Positions 335 to 36,933 of a stretch of 64,000 bases of DNA are shown here, piece after piece (the stretch's first letter is position 1; each line of letters begins with the position of its first letter). A program made the translations under genes and the position numbers. Under the pieces are notes generated by a model that did no database searches, was not told the DNA's origin, and worked only from the letters and a program-made list of their open reading frames with translations. Source of the DNA: Mustelus asterias (taxonomy: Eukaryota); contig NW_027590189.1 of the NCBI RefSeq assembly GCF_964213995.1, positions 186,001 to 250,000 of the forward strand, in the 5' to 3' direction.

Positions 335-1230
335 AAGGCTGCAGATACCTCCTCCCAAGTAACATGTGTGTGCCCAAGACATCACCACTTGTTTCCCTTA
401 TTTCTTTAGCACCCATGGTGCTCTCCGCAGTAAACACAGAGGAGAAGTATTCATTAAAAATCTCACCCATCTCCTGTGGCTCCACACACAGATGGCCATA
501 CTGATTTTTAAGGGGATCTCTTCTCTCTCTAGCCACCTTTTTACTCTTAATATAGCCATAGAACCTCTTGGAATTTTCTTTAATCTTACCTGCCAGATCC
601 ATATCATACCCTCTTTTTGTCCTCCTGATTTCCCTCTTCAGTATTTTCTTACACTTTTTATAGTCAGAGTGATTCACTTGTCCCCGATTGCCGAAACCCA
701 ATGTCTGCTTCCTTCTTTTACCTGATGTGGAGATGCCGGCGTTGGACTGGGGTAAACACAGTCAGAAGTTTAACAACACCAGGTTAAAGTCCAACAGGTT
801 TATTTGGTAGCAAAAGGTGTGGCTTTTGCTACCAAATAAACCTGTTGGACTTTAACCTGGTGTTGTTAAACTTCTTACTTCTTTTCCCTGACCAGAGCCT
901 CAATGTCCCTTGTCTGCCAGAGATCCCTAAATTTACCATTCTTTCCCTTCATCTTAACAGGAATATACTGCCCCTGGACTCTTGATATCACACTTTCAAA
1001 GCCTCCCAATTGCCAGTCATTCCTTTCCCTTCAAACAAACTCACCTCATCGACATCTGCTCGATCCTGCCTAATGCCCACAAAAGTGGCCCTACTCCAGT
1101 TTAGGGCCTTGACCTGTGGACCTGTCCTATCTTTTTCCAGAACTATTTTGAAACTATTGGTGCTCCCAATAGTGCTCCCTGACTGACACTTCAGTCACTT
1201 GCTCCACCTCATTTCTTAACTGTCTAATAG
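335..1230 (-). mobile_element. CR1 LINE ORF2 fragment, interrupted by a hairpin element at 723-879
   Basis: ORF 261..701 LKREIRRTKRGY..KRFYGYIKSK..MGEIFNEYFSSVFT matches the same region of the intact CR1 ORF2 in this window. Confidence 0.85.
723..879. mobile_element. Penelope-like hairpin insertion
   Basis: 57-bp inverted arms (760-816 / 823-879, 1 mismatch), 6-nt loop, flanked by cttctttt(a/c)cctga duplication; same family at 31770, 39565, 54465. Confidence 0.65.
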
Positions 1231-3307: not shown

Positions 3308-4077
3308 GGAACTAGAAGAGGAAGAGTCACAGACAGGAAACTCAAACTAAACTTCACATCAAAGTCTGACAGAGCCATTCGATTCATCATGACCTAAATA
3401 TGATTGCTTTTGACAGTGGAGGGATAAATCGTTCCCTGTTTTGTCAGTGGGAGAAAATTTCAAAATTCAATGTGACAGAAAAAGAACTGAGACACACACA
3501 TACACCCAAGTGAGAGTGCTCCAGTGAACTGACTGTGGATCGAGCTTTAACCAGTTACATAGCCTGAAAAACATCACACCATGGTCTGTATGTGGATGAG
3601 GCTTCAACTAATCATCCAACCTGGAGAGACAGAAGGACACCAGCACCATGGACAAACCGTGGAAATGTGAGGATTGTGGTAAAGGATTCAATTATCCAGC
3701 CCGGTTGGAAACCCATCGACACGGTCACATTGGGGCTGGGAAAATGGAGAAACGATGGAAATGTGATGATTGTGATAAAGGATTCAATTATCTGTACTTG
3801 CTGGAAAACCATAGACACAGTCACATTGGAGAGAGGCCATCTGTTCTGTGTTTGGGAAAGGATTCACTATCTCATCCCACCTGCTGTTACACCAGCAAAT
3901 TCACACTGAGGAGAGGCCGTTCAGTTGCTCCACCTGTGGAAAGGGGTTCTCATGTTCATCCAACCTCAGTGCACATCAGCGAGTTCACACTGGGGAGAGA
4001 TTGTTCACCTGCTCCTTGTGTGGGAAGGATTTTGCTGGGCCATCCAGTCTTTGGACACAACAGCGAATTCACACAGG
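3308..4077 (+). pseudogene. Degenerate C2H2 ZNF exon (duplicated first finger, frameshift, truncated by CR1)
   Basis: MDKPWKCEDCGKGF / MEKRWKCDDCDKGF in one frame and [12 protein letters not shown] fingers in another frame; CR1 starts at ~4078. Confidence 0.8.
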
Positions 4078-5043
4078 ATATATATAATATATATAAATGA
4101 TTTGGAGGAAAATGTAACTGGATTGATAGGTAAGTTTGCGGACGACACAAAGGTTGGTGGATTTGCGGATAGCGATGAGGACCATCAGAGGATACAGCAG
4201 GATATAGACCAGTTGGAGACTTGGGTGGAGAGATGGAGTTTAATCCGGACAAATGTGAGGTAATGCAGTTTGGAAGGTCTAATACAGATAGGAAATATAC
4301 AGTAAATGGCAGAACCTTTAACAATATTGATAGGCAAAGGGACCTGGGTGTACAGGAGCACAGATTACTGAAAGTGGCAATGCAGGTGGAGAAGGTCGTC
4401 AAGAAGGTATACGGCATGCTTACCTTCATCGGCTGGGGCATTGAGTTTAAAAATTGGCAAGTCATGTTGCAGCTTTATAGAACCTTAGTTAGGCCGCACG
4501 TGGAATATAGTGTTCAATTCTGGTCGCCACACTACCAGAAGGATGTGGAGGCTTTGGAGAGGGTCCAGAAAAGATTTACCAGGATGTTGCCTGGTATGGG
4601 GGGCATTAGCTATGAGGAGAGGTTGGGAAACTTGGTTTGTTCTCACTTGAGCGATGGAGGTTGAGGGGAGACCTGATAGAAGTCGACAAGATATGAGAGG
4701 CATGGAAAGAGTGGATAGACAGAAACTTTTTCCCAGGGTGGAAGAGTCAATTACTAGGGGGAATAGGTTTAAGGTGCGAGGGGTAAAGTTTAAAAGAGAT
4801 GTACAAGGCAGATGTTTTACACAGAGAGTGGTGGGTGCCTGGTATTCATTGCCGGGGGAGGTAGTGGAAGCAGATACGGTCTTGACTTTTAAGCGGCGTC
4901 TTGACAAGTACATGAATGAGATGAGAATAGAGGGATATGGTCCCTGGAAGGGTAGTGGGTTTTAGTTAAGTCGGGCAGTATGGTCGGTGCAGGCTTGGAG
5001 TGCCAAAGGGCCTGTTCCTGTGCTGCAATTTTCTTTGTTCTTA
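4078..5043 (+). mobile_element. 5'-truncated CR1 LINE (RT C-terminal half and 3' end)
   Basis: IYINDL..KFADDTK, YRTLVRPHVEYSVQFWSP; acacagg flanks both ends (4071 and 5046), a possible TSD. Confidence 0.9.
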
Positions 5044-5559
5044 GTACACAGGCCAATTTATCTTTCTAGGGGTGTGTGTCTGAGAGGTATGCAACTGGAA
5101 AACATTTTCCATTCACCTTCTGCATTGCTGCAGTATAAATAGATGTTGTTCTCACTCTGCCAGCAGGGCTGTGGGATTAATTGGACAGATCTTAAAGACA
5201 GCCCGACTGGGCAGGATGTGCCAAGTGGTTTCCATCTGTGATGTATCATTCCATAAAACAGAATATTTAGCATCAGGAGAAAGAAAGTGAAAGAAACCTG
5301 TCTCTGTGGGATTTACCCAACCAGCATGAGCACCTTCAGGACAGCAGAGAGAGGGGAGGAATCCAGTGGGAAAAGTTTTAAAAACTCGGGGTATTCCCAC
5401 AGGAGAGCACTGGTTTAAATCAATTTTAGAAATAGAGAATGGCAGCGCACAAATTCCGAGGAATGCATTTTTTAAAATTAATTGATCTTAATTGCACAAG
5501 ATAATTTTCTATTATTGTCTTTGATTGACAATGACGCCATTAATTCCCAGGTGCCCCTG

Positions 5560-5951
5560 CGGGTGTGAAAGTGTCCTATTCATTCCACAGGAGCCTATTG
5601 CGCAGGCGCAGTACTATATCTGGAGCGTGCGCAGTGTCACTTTGCCCGGAGCCCTATGAATGCGGGAGCGGCTTTTTTCAGAGGGTGAGTCAGTGGGGCT
5701 GCGGGAGAAATGTAGCCGGGAGTCGGGGTAGGGAGGGAGCTATGGCTTCACAAACATCCGCTGTAGGCCGCACGGCCCGAATAAGACCCTGCAGGTCCCG
5801 GGTTTACAGCTCCCAGGCTTTTATCCCGGGAACAGGCCCAGGTTATCGGCCGCCATCTTGTTTCAGCGGGGAAGGAGAGCGCATGCGCTGCTGTCGGTGG
5901 CGGGTCACAATGGGCGTGGTTTCAGGGGCTGGTTCAGAACCTCTGTCTTCA
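5560..5951 (+). promoter_or_regulatory. CpG-rich promoter / first exon of the 7382 ZNF gene
   Basis: tgcgcaggcgca, gcgcatgcgc (NRF1-like), gccgccatctt (YY1); ends in ctctgtcttca, the exon-1 sequence that precedes the donor in paralogs. Confidence 0.6.
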
Positions 5952-5960
5952 GAGGGACAA

Positions 5961-6196
5961 TAGAATCATAGAAACCCTACAGCACAGAAAGAGGCCATTC
6001 GGCCCATCGAGTCTGCACCGACCACAATCCCACCCAGGCCCTACCCCCATATCCCTCCATATTTTACCCGCTAATCCCTCTAATTTACGCATCCCAGGAC
6101 ACTAAGGGGCAATTTTTTTAGCATAGCCAATCGACCTAACCCGCACATCTTTGGACTGTGGGAGGAAACCGGAGCACCCAGAGGAAACCCTCGCAG
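5961..6196 (-). mobile_element. HE1-type SINE, 5'-truncated, nested in the 5' end of a Tx1 fragment
   Basis: catagaaaccctacag tail; agaggg on both sides (5951 and ~6197). Confidence 0.85.
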
Positions 6197-6604
6197 AGAG
6201 GGGCGGGTCGGGATGGTGACCTCCTCGTGAACCTGCTCCTGGGCCTGGCGAAGCGCTCCATTTATAGGTCCAGGCAGCAGACGATCGAGGGGGCCGTCCA
6301 TCCTGACTGTCTGCCCCTCTACCGTGGCTACGTTCGCGGCCAGGTGTCCCTGGAGAGGGAACATGCGATGTCCATGGGCGCGGTTGACGCCTTCCACCCC
6401 CGTTGGGCACTGCAGGGGTTGGGGTGTGTTATCGACCCGAATAATCACATTATGATTTGATGTTTTTAAGTTTCCTTTGTACTTTGATTTTTGTTCGGGC
6501 TGCTCCCCCTCCTTTTGGGGAGCTGCTCCTTTTGGGGAGCTGCCCCTTTTACTTTGTCCTGATTTAACTTGAGTTTGTTTATTTGGTTTGACCTTAAAAG
6601 AGGC
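6197..6604 (+). mobile_element. Tx1-clade (L1/Tx1) LINE 3' fragment
   Basis: GDLLVNLLLGLAKRSIYRSR...SLEREHAMSMGAVDAFHPRW ORF2 C-terminus, then T-rich 3'UTR ending gaccttaaaagaggc. Confidence 0.75.
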
Positions 6605-7381
6605 CAACATCTGTGAGTAAAACACTTTCTTTTCTCCCCCTTTCCATTTCTTTTCTCATTCTGGGGGAAATTGGGGAGTTGCAGCAACTGAAGGGAAAGG
6701 AAGTGAATCCAGTCGGTATGTTCCACACATTGTTAGTCCAGTCAGATAGACATATATCTGTCTGGCAGCCTGCATGGAGATTTCCAGCTCTCTGTGTCCA
6801 GGACAGGAAGCAGTGAGCATAGATCTATCAATCAGCACCTTCAGGAGAATTGGGAGGGTGAATATTAGATACAGCAGAGTGAGAATGGAGGGAGAGTGTG
6901 TGGGATGGAGATTTGCAGCTCTTGGGGAATGAGAGAGGAAATAATGTTCCATAGAAACTAGAATTGTCTGTTCTGAATTTCTATCCTGTACTGACAGTAA
7001 TAACCTTTGTAAACTCCTTTTACAGGATATCAGAAGTTGAGGATTTTACAGACAGAAATCTCAAACCAAACATCACATCAACATCTGACAGAGTCACTCA
7101 ATTCATCGGGAGCTGAATATCTTGGGTCTTTGTATCCAGAAGGAAAAATGTTTCTCTGTTCTGTTGGCTTTAGCAGTCTTTAAACATCAGTGTGACTGGA
7201 ACAGGACTCACACACACACACAAAATCAACTGAGATTTTCCCATGCAGTGACTGTGGAAAGAGCCTCCCAGTTACAGAGCCTGAAAAAATATTGCCCCAT
7301 CACAGCAGGGCACTATAATATTGTTCTGTGTGAGACTTCAACTGATGGTCAAACCTGGAGCAACACAAGGACACCTGCCCC

Positions 7382-8212
7382 ATGGAGAAACCGTGGAAAT
7401 GTGGGGACTGTGGGAAGGGTTGCAAAACCCCCTCTGAGCTGCAAATTCATCGACGTATTCACACTGGAGAGAAGCCGCACACCTGTTCTGTGTGCGGGAA
7501 GGGATTCACTCGGTTATATTATCTGCAGCGACATCGGCTGGTTCACACTGGAGAAAGAGCGTTCATCTGCTTTGAGTGTGGGAACGGATTCGCTCATTTA
7601 CCCGATCTGCAGAGACACCAGCGCGTTCACACTGGAGAGAGACCATTCATCTGCTTGGTGTGTGGGAAAGGATTTATGCAGTTATCCAACCTGTCAAAAC
7701 ACAAAGTCACTCACACCAATGAGAGACCCTTGAAGTGCTCTGACTGTGGAAATGGTTTCAAAAGCTCTCGGGAACTGATGATCCACCAGCGCATTCACAC
7801 TGGGGAGAGACCGTTCAGCTGCTCTCACTGCACAAAGACATTTAGAACATCATCCCACCTGCGGGAGCACCAGCGAATTCACACCAGGGAGAGACCATTC
7901 ACCTGCTCTGTGTGTGGGAAGGGATTCACTCATTCATCCAGCCTGCTGAGTCACAATCTCACTCACACTCAGGAGAGACCCTTTAAATGCTCTGACTGTG
8001 GCAGTGGTTTCAAAAGTCCTCGGGATCTGGTTATCCACCAGCGCATTCACACTGAGGAGAGACCATTCAGCTGCTCTCACTGCACAAAGAGATTTAGAAC
8101 GTCATCAAACCTGCAGGAACACCAGCGAGTTCACACTGGGGAGAGACCGTTCACCTGCTGTGTGTGTGGGAAGGGATTCACTCAGTCATCCAGCCTGCGG
8201 AGACACCAATGA
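7382..8212 (+). CDS. C2H2 zinc-finger protein, 9 complete fingers plus a 10th truncated by an Arg>stop change
   Basis: [12 protein letters not shown] start with TGE(K/R)P linkers; upstream donor 6613, exon ~6802-6857, acceptor ttttacag at ~7025. Confidence 0.85.
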   Translation: MEKPWKCGDCGKGCKTPSELQIHRRIHTGEKPHTCSVCGKGFTRLYYLQRHRLVHTGERAFICFECGNGFAHLPDLQRHQRVHTGERPFICLVCGKGFMQLSNLSKHKVTHTNERPLKCSDCGNGFKSSRELMIHQRIHTGERPFSCSHCTKTFRTSSHLREHQRIHTRERPFTCSVCGKGFTHSSSLLSHNLTHTQERPFKCSDCGSGFKSPRDLVIHQRIHTEERPFSCSHCTKRFRTSSNLQEHQRVHTGERPFTCCVCGKGFTQSSSLRRHQ

Positions 8213-11110: not shown

Positions 11111-11544
11111 TTCCCATAAATCCTCAATTATAAAGCAAAATAGACATAAGTTTCCGGGCGATTTAAAAACAAATTAACTTTTCTACTGAACCTAAAGGGG
11201 TGGGGAGTGAGCAGAAAAAAACTTGGCACACAATTACATCACTTTACATAATTTAAAAAATCTCTAACAACAAAACAATCTTAATTTTAAACTTCATCTA
11301 TTATTCTTTTTGTTTTCTTCCTCAACCGAATTATTTTAATTTGATCAGTTTTTGTTAGGGATGGGTAACTTCTGTTCTTTATAAACTGATTCATTCGTTT
11401 TGTTAGTTCTACATGAGAATCAGAACCCAGACTTTATCATCCTTATAAGAACATAAGAACATAAGAAATAGGAGCAGGAGTAGGCCATCTAGCCCCTCGA
11501 GCCTGCCCCGCCATTCAATAAGATCATGGCTGATCTGACGTGGA

Positions 11545-14541
11545 TCAGTACCACTTACCCGCCTGATCCCCATAACCCTTAATTCCCTTACCGATCAGGA
11601 ATCCATCCATCCGCACTTTAAACATATTCAGCGAGGTAGCCTCCACCACCTCAGTGGGCAGAGAATTCCAGAGATTCACCACCCTCTGGGAGAAGAAGTT
11701 CCTCCTCAACTCTGTCTTAAACCGACCCCCCTTTATTTTGAGGCTGTGTCCTCTAGTTTTAACTTCCTTACTAAGTGGAAAGAATCTCTCCGCCTCCACC
11801 CTATCCAGCCCCCGCATTATCTTATAAGTCTCCATAAGATCCCCCCTCATCCTTCTAAACTCCAACGAGTACAAACCCAATCTCCTCAGCCTCTCCTCAT
11901 AATCCAAACCCCTCATCTCCGGTATCAACCTGGTGAACCTTCTCTGCACTCCCTCCAATGCCAATATATCCTTCCTCATATAAGGGGACCAATACTGCAC
12001 ACAGTATTCCAGCTGCGGCCTCACCAATGCCCTGTACAGGTGCATCAAGACATCCCTGCTTTTATATTCTATGCCCTTCGCAATATAGGCCAACATCCCA
12101 TTTGCCTTCTTGATCACCTGTTGTACCTGCAGACTGGGCTTTTGCGTCTCATGCACAAGGACCCCCAGGTCCCTTTGCACAGTAGCATGTTTTAATTTGT
12201 TTCCATTGAGATAGTAATCCCATTTGTTATTATTTCCTCCAAAGTGTATAACCTCGCATTTCTCAACGTTATACTGCATTTGCCATATCCTCGCCCACTC
12301 ACTCAGCCTGTCCAAATCTCTCTGCAGATCTTCTCCGTCCTCCACACGATTCACTTTTCCACTTATCTTTGTGTCGTCTGCAAACTTTGTTACCCTACAC
12401 TCCGTCCCCTCCTCCAGATCATCTATATAAATGGTAAACAGTTGCGGCCCGAGTACCGATCCCTGCGGCACGCCACTAGTTACCTTCCTCCAACCGGAAA
12501 AACACCCATTTATTCCGACTCTTTGCTTCCTGTCGGATAGCCAGTCCCCAATCCACTTTAACACACTACCCCCAACTCCGTGTGCCCTAATCTTCTTCAG
12601 CAGCCTTTTATGGGGCACCTTATCAAACGCCTTTTGGAAATCCAAAAACACCGGTTCTCCTCCATCAACCGCCCTAGTCACATCTTCATAAAAATCCAAC
12701 ATGTTCGTCAAGCACGACTTTCCCCTCATGAATCCATGCTGCGTCTGATTGATCGAACCATTTCTATCCAGATGCCCTGCTATCTCCTCTTTAATAATGG
12801 ATTCCAGCATTTTCCCTACTACAGACGTTAAGCTGACCGGCCTATAGTTACCCGCCTTTTGTCTCCTTCCTTTTTTAAACAGCGGCGTAACATTAGCCGT
12901 TTTCCAATCAACCAGCACTACCCCAGAATGCAACGAGTTTTGATAAATAATCACTAACGCATCCTCTATTACCTCTGACATTTCTTTCAATACCCTGGGA
13001 TGCATTCCATCCGGACCCGGGGACTTGTCCACCTTCAGTCCCATTAGTCTACCCAGCACTGCCTCTCTGGTAACATTAATTGTATTAAGTATTTCTCCTG
13101 CTGCCAACCCTCTATCGTTAATATTTGGCAAACTATTTGTGTCCTCCACCGTGAAGACCGACACAAAAAACTTATTTAAAGACTCAGCCATATCCTCATT
13201 TCCCACTATTAACTCCCCCCTCTCGTCCTCCAAGGGTCCAACATTCACTCTAGCCACTCTATTCCTTTTTATATATTTATAAAAACTTTTACTATCATTT
13301 TTTATATTAATTGCTAGCCTAGCTTCATAGTCTATCCTTCCTTTCTTTATCGCTTTCTTAGTCTCTCTTTGTTGTTTCTTAAATTTTTCCCAATCACTTG
13401 TTTCTCCACTATTTTTGGCCACTCTGTACGCAGCTGTTTTTATTTTAATACTCTCCTTTATTTCCTTCGTTGTCCACGGCTGGTTCTCCCTTTTCTTACA
13501 ATCCTTGTTTTTTGCTGGAATATATTTTTGCTGAGAACTGAAAAGGATCTCCTTAAAAATCCTCCACTGTTCCTCAGCTATCCTACCTGCCAGCCTGCTC
13601 TCCCAGTCTACCTTAGCCAATTCATCCCTCATCCTATCATATTTCCCTCTGTTCAAACAGAGGACACTGGTTTGGGACCAAACTTTCTCCTCTTCCATCT
13701 GAATCAGAAATTCGACCATATTGTGGTCACTAGACCCAAGAGGGTCCTTCACAATAAGATCCTTAATTCGACCTACCTCGTTACACAATACCAGATCCAA
13801 AATAGCTTGTTCCCTCGTCGGTTCCGTAACATGCTGTTCAAGGAAACTATCCCGACAGCATTCTAAGAACTCTTCCTCCATTCCACCCTTACTGACTTGA
13901 GTCTGCCAGTCAATGTGCATGTTGAAGTCCCCCATGATTATTGCCGTTCCGTTTTTACACGCATCCCTTATCTGCTTGTTTATAGCCCTCCCTACCTCAA
14001 CATTATTATTTGGGGGCCTATATACCACACCTACTAGTGTCTTTCTCCCTCTACTATTCCTCATCTCTACCCATAATGATTCCACGTTTTGTTCCTCAGA
14101 GCCTATGTCATCCCTCAGTACTACCCTGATATTATCTCTTATTAATAGCGCGACCCCACCACCTTTTCCTTCCTGTCTATTCTTCCTAAACGCCTGATAC
14201 CCCTGGATATTCATCTCCCAGTCCTGGTCACCTTTCAGCCACATTTCTGTAATGGCCACTAGATCGTACCCACTTGTGCTGATTTGCACCATCAACTCAT
14301 TTACCTTGTTCCGAATGCTTCGTGCATTCAGGCAAAGTGTCCTTATTCCAGCTTTTATCTGGACCCGCTTTGATGAGTCGCGAACACCCTCTCCCTCTAC
14401 TCCCTTTTCTAAATTACCGCCTTCATTCACTTGCACCCTCTCCTCTACCATTAATTTTGTAATTCCCCTTTCCCCTGCATCCTCCCCCCCATCAATTAGT
14501 TCCTTGATCCTGGTCAACTCTTCTAGCTCCCCTCCCCCCAA
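11545..14541 (-). CDS. CR1 ORF2: APE endonuclease + reverse transcriptase
   Basis: 998-codon open frame: CLNARSI, AITEMWL, VVYRPP, MGDFN, SSDHN (APE); KSPGPDG, NYRPVSL, FLDFQKAFD, GVPQGSVLGP, KFADD (RT). Apparent ~3-residue loss at EPV^FLDF. Confidence 0.95.
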   Translation of the reverse strand: MGGGELEELTRIKELIDGGEDAGERGITKLMVEERVQVNEGGNLEKGVEGEGVRDSSKRVQIKAGIRTLCLNARSIRNKVNELMVQISTSGYDLVAITEMWLKGDQDWEMNIQGYQAFRKNRQEGKGGGVALLIRDNIRVVLRDDIGSEEQNVESLWVEMRNSRGRKTLVGVVYRPPNNNVEVGRAINKQIRDACKNGTAIIMGDFNMHIDWQTQVSKGGMEEEFLECCRDSFLEQHVTEPTREQAILDLVLCNEVGRIKDLIVKDPLGSSDHNMVEFLIQMEEEKVWSQTSVLCLNRGKYDRMRDELAKVDWESRLAGRIAEEQWRIFKEILFSSQQKYIPAKNKDCKKRENQPWTTKEIKESIKIKTAAYRVAKNSGETSDWEKFKKQQRETKKAIKKGRIDYEARLAINIKNDSKSFYKYIKRNRVARVNVGPLEDERGELIVGNEDMAESLNKFFVSVFTVEDTNSLPNINDRGLAAGEILNTINVTREAVLGRLMGLKVDKSPGPDGMHPRVLKEMSEVIEDALVIIYQNSLHSGVVLVDWKTANVTPLFKKGRRQKAGNYRPVSLTSVVGKMLESIIKEEIAGHLDRNGSINQTQHGFMRGKSCLTNMLDFYEDVTRAVDGGEPVFLDFQKAFDKVPHKRLLKKIRAHGVGGSVLKWIGDWLSDRKQRVGINGCFSGWRKVTSGVPQGSVLGPQLFTIYIDDLEEGTECRVTKFADDTKISGKVNRVEDGEDLQRDLDRLSEWARIWQMQYNVEKCEVIHFGGNNNKWDYYLNGNKLKHATVQRDLGVLVHETQKPSLQVQQVIKKANGMLAYIAKGIEYKSRDVLMHLYRALVRPQLEYCVQYWSPYMRKDILALEGVQRRFTRLIPEMRGLDYEERLRRLGLYSLEFRRMRGDLMETYKIMRGLDRVEAERFFPLSKEVKTRGHSLKIKGGRFKTELRRNFFSQRVVNLWNSLPTEVVEATSLNMFKVRMDGFLIGKGIKGYGDQAGKWY

Positions 14542-14546
14542 CCTAT

Positions 14547-15480
14547 CTAGTTTAAATTCTCCCCAGTAGCCTTAGCCAACCTACCGGCCAGGATATTGGT
14601 CCCCGTGTGATTCAAGTTCCACCCGTTTTTTGTACACAGATCACCCCTGCCCCTAAAGAGGTCCCAATGGTCCAGGAACCTGAATCCCTGCCCCCTGCAC
14701 CAGTCCCTCAGCCACACATTCATCCTCCACCTCACTCCATTCCTGCCCTCACCTTCCCGTGGCACAGGCAGTAATCCTGAGATTACTACCTTTGCTTTCC
14801 TCTTTCTCAGCTGTCTCCCTAATTCCCTGTACTCCTTTTTCATGACCCCTTCTCCCTTCCTACCCACATCAGCGGTACCAATATGTACCGCTACCTCAGG
14901 CTCCTCTCCCTCCCACCTCAGGATTTCCGGGACGCGACGAGCGACATCCTGGATCCCGGCCCCAGGGAGGCAGACCACCATGCGAGAATCCCGCCTACCT
15001 CCGCAGAAACGCCTCTGTCCCCTTCACCATCGAGTCCCCGATTAATACCGCCTTCCTCTTTTCCTTAGCCCTCTGAGTTACAGGGCTGGACTCCACTGCG
15101 GAGACACGGCCACTGCTGCTTCCCCCAGGCGGGCTGTCCCCCCCAGCAGTACTCAAGCAGGAGTACTTGTTGTGCAGGGGCAAATCCACCGGGGTGCTCT
15201 CAACCACCCTAGCCTTACCCTTCCTGGCCGTCACCCACTTGGCCTCCTCCCGTGGCCCTGGTGTGACCACCTGATGATAGCTCTTGTCTATCACCTCCTC
15301 ATTCTCCCTCATCAGCCTAAGATCCTCGAGCTGCAGTTCCAGCTCCCTAACACGGTCCCTCAGGAACCGCAGCTCGACACACCCCTCACAGATGTGGATG
15401 TCCGGGAGGCCAGATGCCTCCAGGACCTCCCACATCCTACACTGGGAACAGCACACTGGTTTCACACTCATACTGGACAC
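14547..15480 (-). CDS. CR1 ORF1: Zn-binding/coiled-coil + SGNH esterase-like domain, split by one frameshift near 15015
   Basis: CSQC..HICEGC, RVRELELQLEDLR, LIGDSMV then VCLPGAGIQDV, VHIGTAD, FLDHW; frame offset fits a 2-bp loss in GTDRRF. Confidence 0.85.
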
Positions 15481-15815
15481 TTTATGTCAAGTAAGACCGT
15501 GAAAAGTTAATAAGAGTGTAAGGAAACAAAAACTCACCCCTGCTCGTCCAAGTCCTGTGAGCCAAAGCCCTGACAGCTCACTCAACTTCCCACTCACTCT
15601 GCTGCCCGCTACGATGCTGCCCGCTGTATACTTTGGTGCACTTTTAAACCCTCCAAAAACTTCCCCTGGCCTCTCCTGGCCCTACTTCCGGTTTTGAAAA
15701 AAACCTCCGATTTTAAACCCTTTATCTCCCTTTTATCCTTTATCTCCTTTTGCCACCACTCCCTCTGTTTTGCGGGAGGGTCGTGGGGATTCCAATCAGA
15801 ACTAATCATTTTATC

Positions 15816-15995
15816 ATAAAAGTAAAATACTGCAGATTCTGGAATCTGAAACAAAAACAGAAAATGCTGGAAAATCTCAGCAGGTCTGACAGCATCTGTG
15901 GAGAGAGAATAGAGCCAATGTTTCGAGTCTGAATGACCCTTCATAAGAGCTCTTCTGAAATGTAATCCAGACTCGAAAGATTGGCTCTATTCTCT
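15816..15995. mobile_element. Penelope-like terminal fragment with inverted repeat
   Basis: agagaatagagccaatgtttcgagtct...agactcgaaagattggctctattctct; flanked by atcatttta duplication; paralogous copy 42375-42554. Confidence 0.6.
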
Positions 15996-17330: not shown

Positions 17331-18173
17331 TCACTCGTGAATTTGCTGGTGTCTCAGCAGCTGGGATGAAACTCTGAATCCCTTCCCACACAGAGAGCAG
17401 GTGAATGGTCTCTCTCCGGTGTGAACTCGCTGGTGTGTCCGCAGGCTGGATGAGTTAGTGAATCCCTTCTCACACTTCGGGCAGGTGAATGGCCTCTCTC
17501 CGGTGTGAACTCGCTGGTGTGTCTGCAGACTGGATGAGGCAGTAAATCCCTTCCCACACTGAGAGCAGGTGAATGGTCTCTCCCCAGTGTGAACTCGCTG
17601 GTGTGTTTGCAGGCTGGAAGACTTGGTGAATCCTTTCTCACACTGAGGGCAGGTGAACGGCCTCTCTCCGGTATGAACTCGCTGGTGTTTCTGCAGGGTG
17701 GATAATTGAGTGAATCCCTTCCCACACACAGTGCAGGTGAATGGCCTCTCCCCAGTGTGAACTCGCTGGTGTGTCCGCAGGGTGGATAACTGACGGAATC
17801 CCTTCCCACACACAGGGCAGGTGAATGGTCTCTCCCCAGTGTGAACTCGCTGGTGTCTCTGCTGGTTGGATAACTGACTGAATTTCTTCCCACACACGCA
17901 GCAGGTGAATGGCTTCTTCCCAGTGTGAACTCACTGGTGTTTCTGCAGGCTGGATGACTGAGTGAATCCCTTCCCACACACAGAGCAGGTGAATGGCCTC
18001 TCCCCAGTGTGAACTAGTTGGTGTGTCCGCAGTTCAGATGACTGAGTGAATCCCTTTCCACACACAGAGCAGCTGAACGGCCTCTCCCCAGTGTGACTGC
18101 GTCGATGAATTTCCAGCCGAGATAGGCACATGTATCCCTTCCCACAGTCCCCACATTTCCACGGTTTCCCCAT
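17331..18173 (-). pseudogene. 10-finger C2H2 ZNF with one in-frame TGA (17933-17931) in finger 3
   Basis: ORFs 17931..18173 and 17331..17897 are in the same frame, separated by CAC CAG TGA (HQR>HQ*). Confidence 0.85.
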
Positions 18174-18329: not shown

Positions 18330-18899
18330 TCAGGTGTGTGTGTGTCTCGGTACTTTTCCAGTCACACAGATACTTAAAATCTTCAGAAGCTGACAGAACA
18401 GAGAAACATTTCCCCTTCTAGATTCAAAGGTCAGTGATATTGAGGTCCCGATGAATTGAGTGATTCTGTCAGATGTTGATGTGACGTTTGGTTTGAGATT
18501 TCTGTCTGTAAATTCTCACCTTCTGATATGCTGTAAAAGGAATTTACAAAAGTCATCAGTGTCAGTACAGGATAGAAATTCCGAACAGACAAATCAAGTT
18601 TCTAAGGAACATTCTTTTCTCCCTCATTCCCCAAAAGCTGTGAATCTCCATCCCACACACTCTCCCTCCATTCTCACTCTGCTGTATCTAATATTCACCC
18701 TCCCAATTCTCCTGAAGGTGCTGATTGAGGCTGATTGACAGATCCATGCTCACTGCTTCCTGTCCTGGACACATAGAGCTGGAAATCTCCATGCAGGCTG
18801 CCAGACAGATATATGTATATATGACTGGACCAAAAATGTATGGATTATATAGACTGGACTCACTTCCTTTCCCTTCAGTGACTAAGGGCGGACAAGTCA

Positions 18900-20410
18900 C
18901 CAGGACCCAATGAACTGCGTGTCAGCTTTTTAATGGAGGTTGCTGAAGAGATAGTGGAGAATTTTGTTGAAATTTTTTGTAACTTGCTAGATTCCGGGAG
19001 AGTATCAGAAGATTGGCAATCAGCCAATGTGACTCCCTTGGTCAAAAAGGGAGAAAGGCAGAAGGCAGAGAACTATAGGCCAGTTAATTTAACATCTATT
19101 ATTGGCAAGATGCTGGAGTCAATAATCAAAGAGCAAATAGCTAATCATTTAGGAAAGCTGAATATAATCAAACCTCGTCAACATGGTTCTAAGAAAGATA
19201 AATTATTTTTGACAAATTTGCTTGAATTGTTTGAAGATATAAGAAGGAGGGTAGATCGCGAGAAATCTGTAGTTTATTTAGATATGGTGCCATGGCAGCA
19301 CAGTGGTTAGCACTGCTGCCTCACAGTGCCAGGGACCCAGGTTCAATCCCGGCCTTGGGTGACAATCTGTGTGGAGTATGCACATTCTCTCCATGTCTGT
19401 GTGGATTTTTGAGCTCTCCAGGTTCTTCCCACAGTCCAAAGATGTGCGGGTTAGACTGATTGGCCGTGCTAAATTGCCCCTTTGTGTCTCAATAGATGTA
19501 GATTAGGTGGATTAGTGGGGTAAAAATGTAGGGCTACAGGGATAGGGCCAGGAAAGATAAGTCGAGAGTTGGGGAAGATGCAATAAAGTCACCCCTCTGT
19601 CTTCTAAACCTGGCAAATGGAGTTTAAAGTGGGGAAGTGTGAGGTCATGTATTTCAGTTGGAGGAATCAACAGGGAGATTATCTAAATGGAGAGAGGCTG
19701 CCGGTGAGTGAAGTACAGAGGGATCTTGGTGTTCTTGTGCATGAATCACAAAAAGCGAGCAGGCAGGTCCCACACGAGTTAAGGAGGAAAATGGCATTTT
19801 GGCTTTTATTGCAAAGGGGTTGGAGTTTAAAAACAGGGAGGTTTTGTTGCAACTGTACAGTGTGTTGGTGATGCCTCACCTGGGATAATGCATACAGTTT
19901 TGATCCCCTTACCTAAACAAGGATATAGTAATATTGGACATAGTCCAAAGGAAATTCACCAGGCTAATTCCTGGGATAGGAGGGTTGTCCTATCAAGAGG
20001 GAGTAAATTGTCAAGGTCTGTGTTCCTTGAAGTTTTGAAGACAAGGGAGTTATTGAAACATTTCAGATCCTGAGGGGGCTTGACAGGGTAGATGGTGAGA
20101 TATTGTCACGAGTGGGAGAGTCTCAAACAAAATAAAGGGTCAGTCATTTAAAACTGAGGTGTGCAGGAATTTCTTCTCATAGAGGATGATGAAGCTCTGG
20201 AATTCCCCGCCCCAAAGGGTGGTGGAGGCTGGATCGTTAGAAGTATTTAAAGTGGAGGGGGATACATATTTGATAGATCGGGGAATACAGGGCTATGGGG
20301 AAATGGCACAGTAAAGGAGTTGAAACCGGCATCAGTCAGCTATGATCGGATTGAATGGCGGGACAGGCTTCAAGGGCCTGGTGGCCGCTCCTGTTTCTAT
20401 TTCTCGTGAT
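18900..20410 (+). mobile_element. Degraded CR1 ORF2/3' fragments with an HE1-type SINE at ~19294-19560
   Basis: SEDWQSANVTPLVKKG..NYRPVNLTS, MEFKVGKCEVMYF, QRDLGVLVH. Confidence 0.8.
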
Positions 20411-22735: not shown

Positions 22736-23332
22736 CTCTGTGTCCAGGACAGGAAGCAGTGAGCATGGATCTGTCAATCAGCATCAATCAGCACCTTCAG
22801 GAGAATTGGGAGGGTGAATATTAGATACAGCAGAGTGAGAATGGAGGGAGAGTGTGTGGGATGGAGATTCACAGCTTTTGGGGAATGAGAGAGGAAAGAA
22901 GGTTCTATAGAAACTAGAATTGTCTGTTCTGAATTTCTATCCTGTACTGACACTGATGACTTTTGTGAACTTGTTTTACAGGATATTGAAAGAGGAATCA
23001 CAGGCCAAAATCTCAAACGTCACGTCTCGATCTGACAGAGTCATATTCCATGGGAGCTGAATATCATCGGCCTTTGAATCTAGAAGGAGAAATGATTGTC
23101 CAGTCTGTTGATTTGAAAAGATTTCAAACATCAGTGTGACTGCAAAAGCACCAACACTCTGCCACACACGAGTGAGAGTGTTCCAGTGCACGGACTAAAG
23201 AGCTTTAACCAGTTACACAGCCTGAATAACTATCACACCATTCACAGCGGGGAGAGACGGTACCCGTGTTCTGTGTGTGGACGAGGCTTCAACTGATTGT
23301 CCACCCAAGAGAGAGGCAAGGACACCTGCACC

Positions 23333-24511
23333 ATGGAGAAACCATTCAAATGTGGGGACTGTGGGAAGAGATACAGAGCCCCATCTCTGCTGGAAGCTCA
23401 TCGGCGCAGCCACACTGGGGAGAGGCCGTTCACCTGCTCTCAGTGTGGGGAGGGATTCACTCTGTCATCCAGCCTGCAGTCACACCAGCGAGTTCACACT
23501 GGGGAGAGACCGTTCACCTGCTCTCAGTGTGGGAAGGGATTCACTCGGTCATCCAGCCTGCAGTCACACCAGCGAGTTCACACTGGAGAGAGGCCATTCA
23601 CCTGCTCTCAGTGTGGGAAGGGATTCACTCAGTCATCCCACCTTCAGAGACACCAGCGAGTTCACACTGGGGAGAGGCCATTCACCTGCTCTCAGTGTGG
23701 GAAGGGATTCACTCAGTTATCCCACCTGCGGATACACCAGCGAGTTCACACTGGGGAGAGGCCATTCACTTGCTCTCAATGTGGGAAGGGATTCACTCAG
23801 TCATCCCAGCTGCAGATACACCAGCGAGTTCACACTGGGGAGAGGCCGTTCACCTGCTCTCAGTGTGGGAAGGGATTCACTCGGTCAATCAACCTGCTGA
23901 CTCACCAGCGAGTTCACACTGGGGAGAGGCCATTAATCTGCTCGCAGTGTGGGAAGGGATTCACTCAGTTATCCAGCCTGCAGACACACCAGCGAGTTCA
24001 CACTGGGGAGAGGCCATTAATCTGCTCGCAGTGTGGGAAGGGATTCACGCAGTTATCCAGCCTGCAGACACACCAGCGAGTTCACACTGGGGAGAGGCCA
24101 TTAATCTGCTCGCAGTGTGGGAAGGGATTCACGCAGTCATCCCACTTGCAGACACACCAGCGAATTCACACTGGGGAGAGGCCATTCACCTGCTCTCAAT
24201 GTGGGAAGGGATTCATTGAGTTATCCAGCCTGCAGAAACACCAGCGAGTTCACACTGGGGAGAGGCCATTCACCTGCTCTCAGTGTGGGAAGGGATTCAC
24301 TCAGTCATCCAGTCTGCGGACACACCAGCGAGTTCACACTGGGGAGAGGCCGTTCACCTGCTCTCAGTGTGGGAAGGGATTCACTCAGTTATCCAGCCTG
24401 CGGACACACCAGCGAGTTCACATTGGGGAGAGGCCATTCATCTGCTCTCAGTGTGGGAAGGGATTCACAGTTTCATCCCAGCTGCTGAGACATCAACAAG
24501 TTCACGAGTGA
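23333..24511 (+). CDS. C2H2 zinc-finger protein, 14 highly homogenised fingers
   Basis: accATGG at 23333 ([10 protein letters not shown]); 84-bp repeats of [28 protein letters not shown]; upstream exon ~22748-22813, acceptor at 22981. Confidence 0.9.
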
Positions 24512-24737: not shown

Positions 24738-25810
24738 GATATTTAGTCAGAAGAAAACAGAGGTTGGCAGTGCAAAGGTACATTTCTGAATGGAGGGCTG
24801 TGACAAATGACGTTCCTCAGGGATCAGTGCTGGGACTTTTGCTGTTTGTAATATATGTAAATGATTTGGAGGAAAATGTAACTGGTTTTATTGGTAAGTT
24901 TGTGGACGACACAAAGGTTAGTGGAATTGCGGATAACGATGGGGACCGGCAGAGGATACAGCAGGACATGGATCAGTTGGAGACTTGGGCGAAGAGATGG
25001 CAGATGAAGTTTAATCTGGACAAATGTGAGGTAATGCATTTTGGAAGGTCTAATACAGATGGGATATGTACAGTAAATGGCAGAACCCTTAAGAGTATTG
25101 ATAGGCAGAGGGATCTGGGTGTACAGGTACACAGGTCATTGAAAGTGGCAATGCAGGTGGGGAAGATAGTCAAGAATGCATACGACATGCTTGCCTTCAT
25201 CGGCCGGGGCATTGAGTTTAAAAATTGGCAAGTCATGTTGCAGCTTTATAGAACCTTAGTTAAACCGCACTTGGAATCTAGTGTTCAATTCTGGTCACCA
25301 CACTACCAGAAGGATGTGGAGGCTTTGGAGAGGGTCTGGAAAATATTTATCAGGATGTTGCCTGGTGTGGAGGGCATTAGCTATGAGGAGAAGTTGGAGA
25401 AACTTGGTTTGTTCTCACTGGAACAACGGAGGTTGAGGAGGGCAACCTGATAGAAGTCTACAAGATTATGAGGGGCACGGACAGAGTGGATAATCTGAAG
25501 CTTTTTCCCAGGGTGGAAGAGTCAATTACTAGGGGCGTAGGTTTAAGGTGTGAGGGGCAAGGTTTAAAGGAGATTTACGAGGCAGGTTCTTTACACAGAG
25601 GTTGGTGGGTGCCTGGAACTCGTTGCCGGGGAAGGTAGTGGAAGCAGATACGATAGTGACTTTTAAGATGTGTCTTGACAAATATATGAATAGCATAGGA
25701 ATAGAGGGATATGGTCCCCGGAAAGGTAGGGGGTTTTAGTTCAGACGGGCAGCATGGTTGCTACAGGCTTGGAGGGCCAAAGGGCTTGTTTCTGTGCTGT
25801 AATTTTATAG
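24738..25810 (+). mobile_element. 5'-truncated CR1 LINE
   Basis: VPQGSVLG, KFVDDTK, YRTLVKPHLE; same subfamily as 4078-5043. Confidence 0.9.
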
Positions 25811-33155: not shown

Positions 33156-33422
33156 TCAGCTCCTGGAGCAGTTGAGTTTGATGGAGTAGGCGAGGTCAGC
33201 CAGGTAGGCCAGGAAGTTGAGGACGAGCAGGGAGGTGAAGAGGAGCAGCTGGTTCCGCCGGCAGTCCACCCGCGAGCACTCGTCCAGCCAGTCGGCGTGG
33301 CGGGTCAGGTGGAGACCCCAGGCCAGCAGCACGGCCAGCTGGAGCAGGGCGGCCAGGCTGCTGGAGGCCAGCAGGAGGCGGCTGAGGGGCAGCTGGCCGC
33401 AGGCCCGGCACTCCCCAACCAT
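33156..33422 (-). pseudogene. MYADM: MYADM-like (MARVEL domain) C-terminal coding fragment
   Basis: GECRACGQLPLSRLLL..LLAW..C..C.RNQLLLFTSLLVLNFLAYLADLAYS resembles the MYADM C-terminal MARVEL (GECT..P..FL..LW..LTxxNLLAYxxDLxxS); very GC-rich, N-terminal part absent. Confidence 0.6.
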
Positions 33423-33464
33423 AAAAGAAAGTGTTTTCCTCACGGATGTTGTCCAGAGGAGGAG

Positions 33465-34039
33465 GTTTGAGTCTGTGTGTGAAGTTTGAGTCTGTGGTGA
33501 AGTTTGAGTCTGTGTGTGAAGTTTGAGTCTGTGGTGAAGTTTGAGTCTGTGTGTGAAGTTTGAGTCTGTGGTGAAGTTTGAGTCTGTGGTGAAGTTTGAG
33601 TCTGTGGTGAAGTTTGAGTCTGTGTGTGAAGTTTGAGTCTGTGGTGAAGTTTGAGTCTGTGTGTGAAGTTTGAGTCTGTGGTGAAGTTTGAGTCTGTGTG
33701 TGAAGTTTGAGTCTGTGTGTGAAGTTTGAGTCTGTGGTGAAGTTTGAGTCTGTGTGTGAAGTTTGAGTCTGTGGTGAAGTTTGAGTCAGTGTGTGAAGTT
33801 TGAGTCTGTGTGTGAAGTTTGAGTCTGTGGTGAAGTTTGAGTCTGTGGTGAAGTTTGAGTCTGTGTGTGAAGTTTGAGTCTGTGTGTGAAGTTTGAGTCT
33901 GTGTGTGAAGTTTGAGTCTGTGGTGAAGTTTGAGTCTGTGTGTGAAGTTTGAGTCTGTGGTGAAGTTTGAGTCTGTGGGTGAAGTTTGAGTCTGTGTGTG
34001 AAGTTTGAGTCTGTGGTGAAGTTTGAGTCTGTGGTGAAG
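33465..34039. repeat. Minisatellite, ~31 units of 18/19 bp (gtttgagtctgtg[t]gtgaa)
   Basis: Direct reading; unit matches the single-copy gaagtttgagtctgtctgaag of ZNF exon 1 at ~20507. Confidence 0.95.
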
Positions 34040-34129
34040 CTACAAACAGAAGCTGTTCTGTTTCAAATCAAACTGCGGGACTTGGAAGAAAATGATGGGA
34101 AGAGATTTTGCAAAGTTCCCTCCCCCACT

Positions 34130-36063: not shown

Positions 36064-36933
36064 ATGGAAGGAAATAGCACCGTTCACAGTGAAGAGAAAC
36101 TGTACACGTGTTCTGTGTGTGGACAAGACTTCAACCAATCATCCAGCCTTTCGGAACATAATTGCAGTCACAACAGGGAGAAGCTGTGGAAATGTGGGAA
36201 CTGTGGGAAGGGATTCGATTACCCTTCCCAGCTGGAGATTCATCGGCGCAGTCACAGTGGGGAGAGACCATTCACCTGCTCCCAGTGTGGGAGGGGATTC
36301 ACTCAGTCAAACAGTTTACATATACACCAGAGAACTCACACTGACGAGAGACCATTCAACTGCTCCCAGTGTGGGAAAGGATTCAGTGCCTCATCCCATC
36401 TGCTGAAACATCGGTGAATCCACACTGGGGAAAGGCCGTTCACCTGCTCTGTGTGTGGGAAGGGATTCACTCAGTCTTCCAACCTCGCATTACACCAGCA
36501 AATTCACACTGGGGAGAGGCCATTCACTTGCTCCCAGTGTGGGAAGAGATTTGCTCAGTCAGCCACCCTCTTCACACACCAGCGGATTCACACTGATGAG
36601 AGACCTTTTAAATGTCCAGACTGTGGGAAATGCTTTAAAAATTCTGTAAATCTGCACTACCATCAACGTGTTCACACTGATGAGAAACCATTCAGGTGCT
36701 CTCACTGTGGGACTGGGTTCAAGCAATCATCTCAACTCACTGTACACCAGCGCACTCACACTGGGGAGAGACCCTTCACCTGCTCCCAGTGTTGGAATGG
36801 ATTTGCTCACTCATCCACTCTGCTGACACACCAGCGAATTCACACCGGGGAGAAGCCGTTCACTTGTTCCAAGTGTGGAAAGGGATTCAGTCAGTCATCC
36901 AATCTGCTGAGACACCAGCGAGTTCACAAGTAA
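36064..36933 (+). pseudogene. 10-finger C2H2 ZNF (MEGNSTVHS subfamily) with one in-frame TGA at 36415-36417
   Basis: ORFs 36058..36417 and 36451..36933 share a frame; CAT CGG TGA ATC CAC; acceptor tttcacag at ~35954. Confidence 0.85.

What the first reader, a model, noticed from the sequence alone, without database searches (positions are those of the whole stretch)
14520..14565. Canonical -1 slippery heptamer U_UUA_AAC joins CR1 ORF1 to ORF2
Seen: on the minus strand ORF1 ends GAG AAT TTA AAC TAG (heptamer T TTA AAC at 14556-14550, correctly phased). A -1 slip reads TTT AAA CTA GAT AGG TTG..., which is exactly the 998-codon ORF2 frame. The listed ORF2 start is TTG and the first ATG is ~30 codons in. 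A G-run (ggttggggggagggga) starts about 6 nt downstream. Established: UUUAAAC is the coronavirus -1 frameshift site, and -1 frameshifting is typical of gag-pol, whereas well-studied LINEs use reinitiation or coupling. Inference: this CR1 may make an ORF1(esterase)-ORF2 fusion by programmed frameshifting.
Basis: partly seen in the sequence, partly recalled or inferred. Interest (0 to 1): 0.7.

Follow-up and report, generated by a model that had tools for sequence, protein, structure and literature searches.

The report
Ribosomal frameshift signal in CR1 retrotransposons
A very common jumping gene of vertebrates keeps a seven-letter 'slippery' signal right at the end of its first gene in sharks, bony fish, frogs, reptiles and probably birds, which suggests that it makes its copying enzyme the way retroviruses do, by a ribosome slipping back one letter; this has not been tested in the lab.

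Summary
Confirmed: in this near-full-length CR1 LINE of a cartilaginous fish, esterase ORF1 ends T-TTA-AAC-TAG (14556-14547, minus strand), in phase, and the -1 frame runs open 1,001 codons through endonuclease and RT. It is not a one-off. ORF1 ends Leu-Asn-stop in shark, ray, sturgeon, eel, turtle, snake and swallow proteins. The heptamer stands before TAG, TAA or TGA in 18 published CR1-type consensus junctions; no synonymous heptamer-breaking variant was seen at a junction. Other esterase lineages end Gln-Gly-Asn, as G_GGA_AAC would give. A G-run sits 11 nt downstream in 8 families. A distant family has no AUG before the endonuclease Asn. Related L2 elements instead put ORF2 in frame behind UGA-C. 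Best reading (0.8): programmed -1 frameshifting makes an ORF1-ORF2 fusion of about 1,310 aa. Against: no stem-loop or pseudoknot; this subfamily keeps an in-frame AUG; 3 of 18 junctions read UAAUG; no experiment. Ten literature searches found no report for CR1, but the original CR1 papers could not be read; -1 shifting is already stated for Dictyostelium TRE5-A/TRE3-A.

The parts
11445..15790 (-). Near-full-length CR1 LINE (esterase ORF1 + APE/RT ORF2); 5' boundary approximate
   Evidence: ORF2 58-66% identical to three database CR1-type ORF2s
14995..15471 (-). ORF1 5' half (CxxC-x14-CxxC zinc finger and leucine zipper), ATG at 15471; runs into a stop because of a frame break near 15015-15020 in this copy
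   Evidence: homologs P0001-P0016 are continuous across this point
14547..15023 (-). ORF1 3' half: SGNH/GDSL esterase ending Leu-Asn-stop
   Evidence: Lipase_GDSL_2 E 1.8e-10; the family profile matches ZfL2-1 esterase 4C1B at E 1.4e-48
14550..14556 (-). Slippery heptamer U_UUA_AAC, in phase with ORF1
   Evidence: no variant at 4% or more in 4 runs; same heptamer in L002 and in 18 published junctions
14547..14549 (-). ORF1 stop codon directly after the heptamer (TAG here; TAA or TGA in other families)
14529..14539 (-). G-rich element, G6 at +11..+16 and G4 at +18..+21 after the heptamer; candidate frameshift stimulator
   Evidence: first run at the same offset in L002 and in 6 published consensuses (read by eye); second-highest G4Hunter peak of the element
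14466..14490 (-). Second G-rich tract in the linker, top G4Hunter peak of the element; not seen in L002
14449..14453 (-). TAATG: stop of a 13-codon mini-ORF (ATG 14492, ORF1 frame) overlapping the first ORF2-frame ATG (14451); relevant to the reinitiation rival
11545..14550 (-). ORF2 in the -1 frame from the first post-slip codon: linker of about 70 codons, endonuclease, RT; 1,001 codons; lacks about 4 residues before the LDFQKAF motif compared with homologs
11445..11467 (-). 3' tail of tandem 8-nt units, CR1 type

Best explanation
The junction is a programmed -1 ribosomal frameshift signal shared by vertebrate esterase-type CR1 LINEs. Shown: position, phase, open -1 frame and conservation. 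Inferred: most ribosomes stop at the ORF1 stop and make ORF1p (about 310 aa). A minority, with tRNA-Leu and tRNA-Asn on UUA AAC, slip one base back and go on in ORF2, giving a zinc finger-coiled coil-esterase-endonuclease-RT fusion of about 1,310 aa with the junction E-N-L-N/L-D-R-L-G-G-G. This would set a high ORF1p to ORF2p ratio and tie the enzyme to ORF1p multimers, as Gag-Pol does. The stimulator is inferred to be the G-run at +11 (protein-bound or a weak quadruplex), perhaps with the adjacent stop codon; this step is the least certain.
For: (1) U_UUA_AAC and G_GGA_AAC are named among the most shift-prone heptamers for mammalian ribosomes (PMC5009743 passage). (2) Sister copies: 1,323 and 1,161 contigs laid (X1, X7) show no variant at 4% or more from 14513 to 14556 and no indel, while 14557, the base just 5' of the heptamer, differs in 43% and 20% of depth; a second family in X4 and X8 has the heptamer in exact register before TGA. 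(3) L002, found by a heptamer-blind scan, esterase 38% identical: same heptamer and stop, -1 frame open 110 codons to the contig end through the endonuclease motif, and first in-frame Met after the motif's Asn. Changing the conserved endonuclease Asn (N17A) cuts Zorro3 retrotransposition below 5% (PMC1965478 passage); that it is the homologous residue is my inference. (4) Proteins: 59 of 102 whose end coincides with the esterase end finish in LN and 9 in GN. In the DGLHL type, 62 of 87 end in a dipeptide that a slippery heptamer can encode, against a background of 5.9%; in the L2-like DGLHP type 1 of 9. The distance from the catalytic His motif to the end varies from 18 to 34 aa, so the dipeptide follows the stop, not the fold. 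(5) The residue before LN avoids E/Q/K/M/W, which have no T-ending codon: 1 of 36 dereplicated, against 36 of 180 at positions -4 to -8. GN is preceded by Gln in 9 of 9. (6) Two copies that fall into the -1 frame inside ORF1 read F-K-L at the expected place (P0014, P0065). (7) PMC13343379 supplement: 18 of 23 motif hits lie at CR1-type ORF1 ends (11 TAG, 6 TAA, 1 TGA; catshark, dogfish, sawfish, stingray, chimaera, bowfin, a halosaur, coelacanth, bullfrog, bearded dragon, alligator, crocodile, species read from row prefixes). Searching by the upstream G-L-H codons gave 9 of 9 readable junctions with the heptamer. 0 of 26 hits of nine synonymous heptamer-breaking spellings lay at a junction. 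(8) LN lies after the last helix in the AlphaFold model, and the solved ZfL2-1 esterase has no LN at the aligned place.
Against: No experiment and no ribosome profiling. No stem-loop or pseudoknot-like stem downstream (z -0.2 to +0.5); no long-range partner above shuffles; the quadruplex predicted for the window is not predicted for L002. This subfamily keeps an in-frame ATG 42 codons upstream of the endonuclease Asn, without variant in sister copies. 3 of the 18 published junctions read TAATG, the SART1 stop-start, which needs the same -1 phase. Phase down to the endonuclease is shown for only two families by script, plus one by eye (ScyCan_CR1-1a); in AllMis_CR1-1b and PogVit_CR1-2 the motif is out of phase in visibly gappy consensuses, and the rest are unreadable. 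25 of 87 DGLHL-type proteins do not end in a compatible dipeptide. L009 ends CTG AAC TAG without a heptamer (it looks L2-like and decayed). Two Squalus CR1 5' UTRs also carry the heptamer plus stop plus G. The sequences are related, the search profile was built from LN-ending proteins, and the codon spellings were chosen.
Confidence: 0.8

Rival explanations
1. Termination-coupled reinitiation: ribosomes stop at the ORF1 stop and restart ORF2 as a separate protein, at an overlapping UAAUG, at the downstream AUG, or without an AUG as in mammalian L1. The conserved bases would serve termination and tethering.
For: SART1 uses UAAUG (PMC3894237 section 5). L1 ORF2 tolerates loss of its AUG (PMC1965478 passage). 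3 of 18 published junctions read TAATG. The window has an ORF2-frame ATG at 14451 inside a TAATG. TGGGA, a recalled calicivirus reinitiation motif, lies 117 and 81 nt upstream of the stop in the window and in L002.
Against: 15 of 18 published junctions, the window and L002 have no AUG overlapping the stop. L002 has no in-frame AUG before the endonuclease Asn. Two out-of-frame AUGs precede 14451. The stop codon varies while the seven bases before it do not. Reinitiation gives no reason for an XXXYYYZ pattern or for an LN-to-GN switch. TGGGA arises from Trp-Asp codons and is not at a fixed distance.
Confidence: 0.12
2. A conserved nucleic-acid element with another job (protein-binding site, packaging, internal promoter or transcript-processing signal) that happens to look slippery.
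For: The same heptamer-stop-G string lies in the 5' UTR of two Squalus CR1 consensuses. The G-run is conserved at the nucleotide level.
Against: The element is locked to the last two ORF1 codons and to the -1 phase of ORF2. The protein-level alternatives (QGN; FF-x) fit other slippery heptamers, not one binding consensus.
Confidence: 0.05
3. Protein constraint: ORF1p needs a C-terminal Leu-Asn, and the heptamer is a by-product of codon choice and descent.
For: Leu at -2 could continue the amphipathic pattern of the last helix (inference). Position -6 also avoids E/Q/K/M/W (1 of 36), so that test alone is not specific. The sequences share ancestry.
Against: P about 0.009 per independent family for this spelling. 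11 TAG junctions with the heptamer against 0 with nine tested synonymous spellings. LN is outside the last helix. The L2 esterase lacks it. The distance to the fold varies by 16 residues.
Confidence: 0.03

Closest known systems
Vertebrate CR1 with type IVB ORF1 (zinc finger/leucine zipper + esterase; subgroup CR1_7 of Metcalfe and Casane 2014, PMC4120745; 'canonical CR1' of PMC13343379)
   Same: Domain order of ORF1 and ORF2 and the octamer tail. This is the family to which the element belongs.
   Different: Neither paper contains the word frameshift in its main text; the junction signal is not described there.
Dictyostelium TRE5-A and TRE3-A
   Same: APE-type non-LTR elements said to require a -1 frameshift for ORF2 (figure legend in PMC5911963).
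   Different: Amoebal, tRNA-gene-targeting elements; I saw no slippery site, stimulator or experiment in the passage read.
Zebrafish ZfL2-1 and fish L2 clade A
   Same: Homologous esterase ORF1 (4C1B). ORF2 reached by recoding at the ORF1 stop: stop-codon suppression reported by Kajikawa et al. 2012, Gene 499:41 (content recalled; only the title seen).
   Different: ORF2 is in frame 0 behind TGA-C (L004, L008, L012 open 562+, 560+ and 87+ codons; L005 36+), with no heptamer.
Coronavirus ORF1a/1b and retroviral gag-pol -1 frameshift sites
   Same: Same heptamer as IBV, phase, and the logic of an abundant upstream protein and a rare polymerase fusion.
   Different: No pseudoknot or stem-loop predicted downstream; the host element is a LINE, not a virus.
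Arterivirus (PRRSV) protein-stimulated frameshift
   Same: The stimulator is a short single-stranded motif 11 nt 3' of the shift site; the CR1 G-run starts at +11.
   Different: C-rich motif bound by PCBP and nsp1beta, and -2 shifting in the passage read; here the motif is G-rich and no binding protein is known.
SART1 UAAUG translational coupling
   Same: Same -1 phase of the two ORFs; 3 of 18 published junctions have TAATG.
   Different: Most CR1 junctions have no AUG at the stop; coupling gives separate proteins.

Membership tests
Vertebrate CR1 LINE, esterase ORF1 type | ORF2 with APE endonuclease and RT | tested here: met
   Exo_endo_phos, Exo_endo_phos_2, RVT_1; FADD at residue 725
Vertebrate CR1 LINE, esterase ORF1 type | ORF1 with zinc finger, leucine zipper/coiled coil and SGNH esterase | tested here: met
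   long helix 17-57 in the model of the closest homolog; ORF1 is broken in this copy
Vertebrate CR1 LINE, esterase ORF1 type | 3' tail of short tandem repeats, no poly(A) | tested here: met
   8-nt unit repeated at 11467-11445
Vertebrate CR1 LINE, esterase ORF1 type | RT groups with CR1 rather than L2 in a phylogeny | not tested
   No RT tree built. The esterase tree puts the window in a 45-row vertebrate clade (SH-aLRT 95) apart from the L2-like clade (quick tree); ORF2 is 42% identical to a stork CR1-type ORF2.
Programmed -1 ribosomal frameshift (simultaneous slippage type) | X XXY YYZ heptamer in the zero frame, before the zero-frame stop | tested here: met
Programmed -1 ribosomal frameshift (simultaneous slippage type) | Open -1 frame from the site into a conserved coding region | tested here: met
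   window 1,001 codons; L002 110 codons to the contig end
Programmed -1 ribosomal frameshift (simultaneous slippage type) | Conservation of the site beyond coding need | tested here: met
Programmed -1 ribosomal frameshift (simultaneous slippage type) | Stem-loop or pseudoknot 5-9 nt downstream | tested here: not met
   (ViennaRNA does not predict pseudoknots, but no strong stem 1 exists in this purine-rich stretch); no Rfam family at the junction
Programmed -1 ribosomal frameshift (simultaneous slippage type) | Some other 3' stimulator (quadruplex or protein-bound motif) | tested here: inconclusive
   G-run at fixed offset +11 in 8 families; quadruplex predicted in the window but not in L002
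Programmed -1 ribosomal frameshift (simultaneous slippage type) | Measured transframe product | not testable with these tools
   needs a reporter assay, ribosome profiling or mass spectrometry
UAAUG stop-start coupling (SART1 type) | AUG of ORF2 overlapping the ORF1 stop | tested here: not met
   window and L002 lack it; present in 3 of 18 published junctions
Stop-codon readthrough (ZfL2-1 type) | ORF2 in the same frame as ORF1 behind a leaky stop | tested here: not met
   frame 0 after the stop closes within 9 codons in the window; met instead by L004, L008, L012

The most novel reading that the evidence does not exclude
Vertebrate CR1, the dominant LINE of sharks, reptiles and birds, makes an esterase-endonuclease-RT fusion by a -1 frameshift that is stimulated not by an RNA fold but by a protein, or a weak quadruplex, on a G-rich motif 11 nt downstream, the spacing of the arterivirus trans-activated signal. 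The esterase ORF1 module is always joined to its polymerase by recoding: frameshift in CR1 (with U_UUA_AAC swapped for G_GGA_AAC in other lineages) and UGA readthrough in L2. That mirrors the frameshift/readthrough split among retroviruses and may let ORF1p or a host G-tract-binding protein tune RT output.
Probability: 0.3. Interest if true: 0.88.

Novelty: new variant of a known kind. Interest (0 to 1): 0.76.

Why it matters
How LINEs translate ORF2 is called an open and important question in a review of the subject (PMC3894237). CR1-group elements make up 22-34% of shark and ray genomes (PMC13343379) and CR1 about 12% of the chicken genome (PMC11835228). A conserved slippery site would give a direct, cheap test for this family. 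It would change the annotated ORF2 start to a fusion with a membrane-associated esterase, and explain why a CR1 ORF2 can lack an AUG before the endonuclease. It would also add an ancient cellular -1 frameshift whose stimulator is not a stem-loop; natural quadruplex-stimulated frameshifting was described as not yet known in 2016.

Tried and rejected
No host genome is held, so no copy-by-copy count of phase. No other ORF1 copy lies in the window. Viral contigs held no ORF1 relative and only 5 distant RTs; plasmids none; genome contigs gave one chance bacterial match. Of 12 metagenome loci only L002 is a CR1 with a full junction: L001, L006 and L011 end at or before the junction (L006 ends inside it, consistent with the first T), L003, L007 and L010 are decayed or cut, L004, L005, L008 and L012 are L2-like, L009 is unclear. 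No annotated esterase-ORF2 fusion of 756-2155 aa was found (weak evidence, and gene callers would not make one). N-termini of 18 ORF2 homologs do not reach the junction. No RNA holder on record was listed. Watson-Crick stimulator, long-range duplex and Rfam match at the junction: none. Motif hits in the supplements of PMC4316615 and PMC2817409 are the ORF2 3' end, not the junction; PMC11303007 had none. The G_GGA_AAC spelling was not found at any vertebrate junction (0 of 3 hits), so the GN variant rests on protein ends only, and the element type and hosts of those proteins are unknown. A target-site duplication was not established. The binomial and Fisher P values ignore relatedness and are not used as probabilities. 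The tree is the quick one; the careful search did not finish.
Full report
Observation. On the minus strand ORF1 ends GAG AAT TTA AAC TAG, with the heptamer T TTA AAC at 14556-14550 in phase and the stop at 14549-14547. The -1 frame is open from 14571 to 11545 and encodes endonuclease and RT domains; the ORF1 3' half is a GDSL/SGNH esterase. The first ORF2-frame ATG is at 14451, 35 codons after the TTT; two out-of-frame ATGs precede it. In-phase slippery heptamers occur at 6 of the other 1,313 codon positions of the element, and the exact spelling has P about 0.009 given x-Leu-Asn. This copy is young but probably dead: ORF1 has a frame break near 15015-15020 and ORF2 lacks about four residues before LDFQKAF. 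The named ORF1 homologs at 58-69% identity are from skates and rays, so the host is a cartilaginous fish (inference); no genome is held.

Sister copies. Contigs of four runs were laid on 14330-14750 at 80% likeness (1,323, 10, 1,161 and 7 laid). No difference at 4% or more and no indel is listed between 14513 and 14556. The base immediately 5' of the heptamer (14557) differs in 43% of depth in X1 and 20% in X7, and ORF1 upstream has more than 30 variant rows. Summed depth rises across the junction, so further subfamilies align there. A loose end in X4 and X8 belongs to another family and has the heptamer in exact register before TGA, followed by a G-run. The ATG at 14451 is also without variant.

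Protein ends. Of 14 aligned homologs at 50-84% identity, 12 end in LN, one in IN and one runs on LN-LNG, while the residues before vary. A profile search of 1.84 billion representatives gave 5,204 hits, of which the best 150 were listed. Of 165 proteins in hand, 122 reach the C-terminal region and 102 end there; 59 end in LN and 9 in GN. Named LN-enders include a snake, a swallow, two turtles, a sturgeon and an eel. Among 96 proteins kept because they end 15-40 residues after the catalytic His motif, the DGLHL type ends in a heptamer-compatible dipeptide in 62 of 87 (background 5.9%) and the L2-like DGLHP type in 1 of 9; the motif-to-end distance ranges from 18 to 34. In a quick tree the vertebrate CR1 esterases form one 45-row clade (SH-aLRT 95), almost all LN; LN and QGN recur in other clades whose hosts and element types are unknown. 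The residue before LN is E, Q, K, M or W in 1 of 36 dereplicated sequences, against 36 of 180 at positions -4 to -8 (position -6 alone is also 1 of 36). GN follows Gln in 9 of 9. Among 53 proteins whose match stops early, two read on with F-K-L at the expected place, the -1 reading of the site. AlphaFold places the last helix at 278-293 of 297, leaving LN outside, and the solved ZfL2-1 esterase has no LN at the aligned place. These sequences are related and the profile was built from LN-ending proteins, so the counts are not independent trials.

DNA of other families. A scan with a pattern from the esterase core, blind to the junction, gave 12 metagenome loci. One, L002, is a CR1 with a full junction; its esterase is 38% identical to the window's and nearly identical to a sturgeon protein. 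It ends CAT TTA AAC TAG, its -1 frame is open for 110 codons to the contig end through the endonuclease motif, and its first in-frame Met lies after the motif's Asn. It is a single copy and could have lost an AUG. Four L2-like loci have instead TGA followed by C, with the next ORF in frame 0. L009 ends in Leu-Asn without a heptamer and looks L2-like and decayed.

The supplement of PMC13343379 lists consensus sequences, of which only the first 400 letters are visible. 18 of 23 hits for heptamer plus stop lie at CR1-type ORF1 ends (11 TAG, 6 TAA, 1 TGA), 3 are chance hits in L2/Rex1 rows and 2 lie in Squalus CR1 5' UTRs. A search by G-L-H codons gave 17 hits, 10 in the right context, 9 readable to the junction, all 9 with the heptamer; the codon spellings were chosen. 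Nine synonymous spellings that keep x-Leu-Asn-TAG but break the heptamer gave 26 hits, none at a junction; three further spellings and the TAA and TGA versions were not tried. Read by eye, ScyCan_CR1-1a is open in the -1 frame from the heptamer to the endonuclease motif; AllMis_CR1-1b and PogVit_CR1-2 are out of phase there, in consensuses with obvious gaps; the rest cannot be judged. Three of the 18 read TAATG.

Stimulator. No Watson-Crick structure exceeds shuffles downstream, no long-range partner does, and Rfam has nothing at the junction. The two highest G4Hunter peaks of the 4.3 kb element are at 14490 and 14547, and quadruplex-aware folding places a two-tier quadruplex 6 nt after the heptamer, but not in L002. 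What is conserved is a run of five or six G at +11: window and L002 and, by eye, six of the 18 consensuses (two alligator, crocodile, catshark, sawfish, chimaera), these six and the window with a second GGG close behind, at about +18. Most of the other consensuses have a G-run shifted by a few bases, and two have none. The PRRSV stimulator, a protein-bound single-stranded motif, lies 11 nt 3' of its shift site (PMC5009743 passage). The analogy is a lead only.

Mechanism. Most likely (0.8) is a programmed -1 frameshift giving a fusion of about 1,310 aa with the junction E-N-L-N/L-D-R-L-G-G-G. Shown: site, phase, open frame, conservation beyond coding need. Inferred: slippage, its rate, the fusion and the stimulator. 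Termination-reinitiation (0.12) needs the same phase and fits the three TAATG families and the window's ATG, but not the fixed heptamer before a variable stop. Another cis role (0.05) and protein constraint (0.03) fit worse.

Literature. Ten full-text searches returned no paper that reports frameshifting in CR1. Seen as passages from term searches: PMC11835228, PMC1965478, PMC5009743 (first 300,000 characters; no occurrence of CR1), PMC3905857, PMC5135761, PMC5408684, PMC4120745, PMC3894237 (section 5 read whole), PMC13343379 (supplement searched), PMC5911963, PMC4176376, PMC4255032, PMC11303007 (supplement 79), PMC4316615 (supplement 75, one file not searchable), PMC2817409 (supplement only, 78, one file not searchable). 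PMC5911963 states that TRE5-A and TRE3-A need a -1 frameshift, so the mechanism is not new for LINEs. Stop suppression in ZfL2-1 (Kajikawa 2012) is recalled; only its title was seen. Kapitonov and Jurka 2003 is not held, and Haas 1997/2001, Kajikawa 1997 and Repbase entries were not seen; any of them may mention the overlap or a frameshift. Two unchecked notes of this scan point the same way; one says that parts of the layout are in print. They are leads, not support.

Verdict. A real, widely conserved feature; a new variant of a known kind; interest 0.76, held down by the lack of an experiment and by the unread older papers.

Noticed in passing
L004, L005, L008, L012 (ORF1 stops): L2-like fish elements with esterase ORF1 have ORF2 in frame 0 behind TGA-CAT, TGA-CAA, TGA-CAA and TGA-CTA: 4 of 4 have C after UGA, a readthrough-type context. 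Fits the recalled stop suppression in ZfL2-1.
   Followed up: partly
Proteins P0069, P0070, P0072, P0075, P0081, P0084, P0087, P0130, P0151; also P0095, P0098, P0076, P0116, P0134, P0117: Unnamed esterase ORF1-like proteins end in QGN (9), FF plus one residue (3), EN (2) or KN (1), as other slippery heptamers would give; hosts and element types unknown, DNA not obtained.
   Followed up: partly
PMC13343379 supplement rows SquAca_CR1-3 and SquAca_CR1-18: The heptamer plus stop plus G string also lies in the 5' UTR, roughly 130 nt upstream of the ORF1 start; unexplained.
   Followed up: no
window 14449-14492 (-): A 13-codon mini-ORF in the ORF1 frame ends in TAA overlapping the first ORF2 ATG (TAATG); absent from L002.
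   Followed up: partly
window 3612-8212, 17331-18013, 23226-24511, 36418-36933, 40491-41429, 43955-44809, 49200-50261, 57345-58466: The window is a cluster of tandem C2H2 zinc-finger ORFs on both strands, many beginning with a similar MEKPWKC-type segment.
   Followed up: no
window 33156-34062: Tandem repeat with units of a few tens of bases, open in several frames, next to a stretch that translates like a membrane protein exon.
   Followed up: no
window 15904-15995, 42281-42895, 147-334, 61368-61743: A dispersed repeat family just beyond the CR1 5' end, with a 92-nt near-palindrome at 15904-15995 that scores weakly (below the gathering score) as mir-5681; probably a SINE or MITE.
   Followed up: no
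window 369-668, 4075-4953, 18882-20308, 24740-25736, 37211-39070, 53542-55723, 62246-62941 and others: More than a dozen 5'-truncated, decayed CR1 ORF2 fragments of other subfamilies; none reaches the ORF1 junction.
   Followed up: yes
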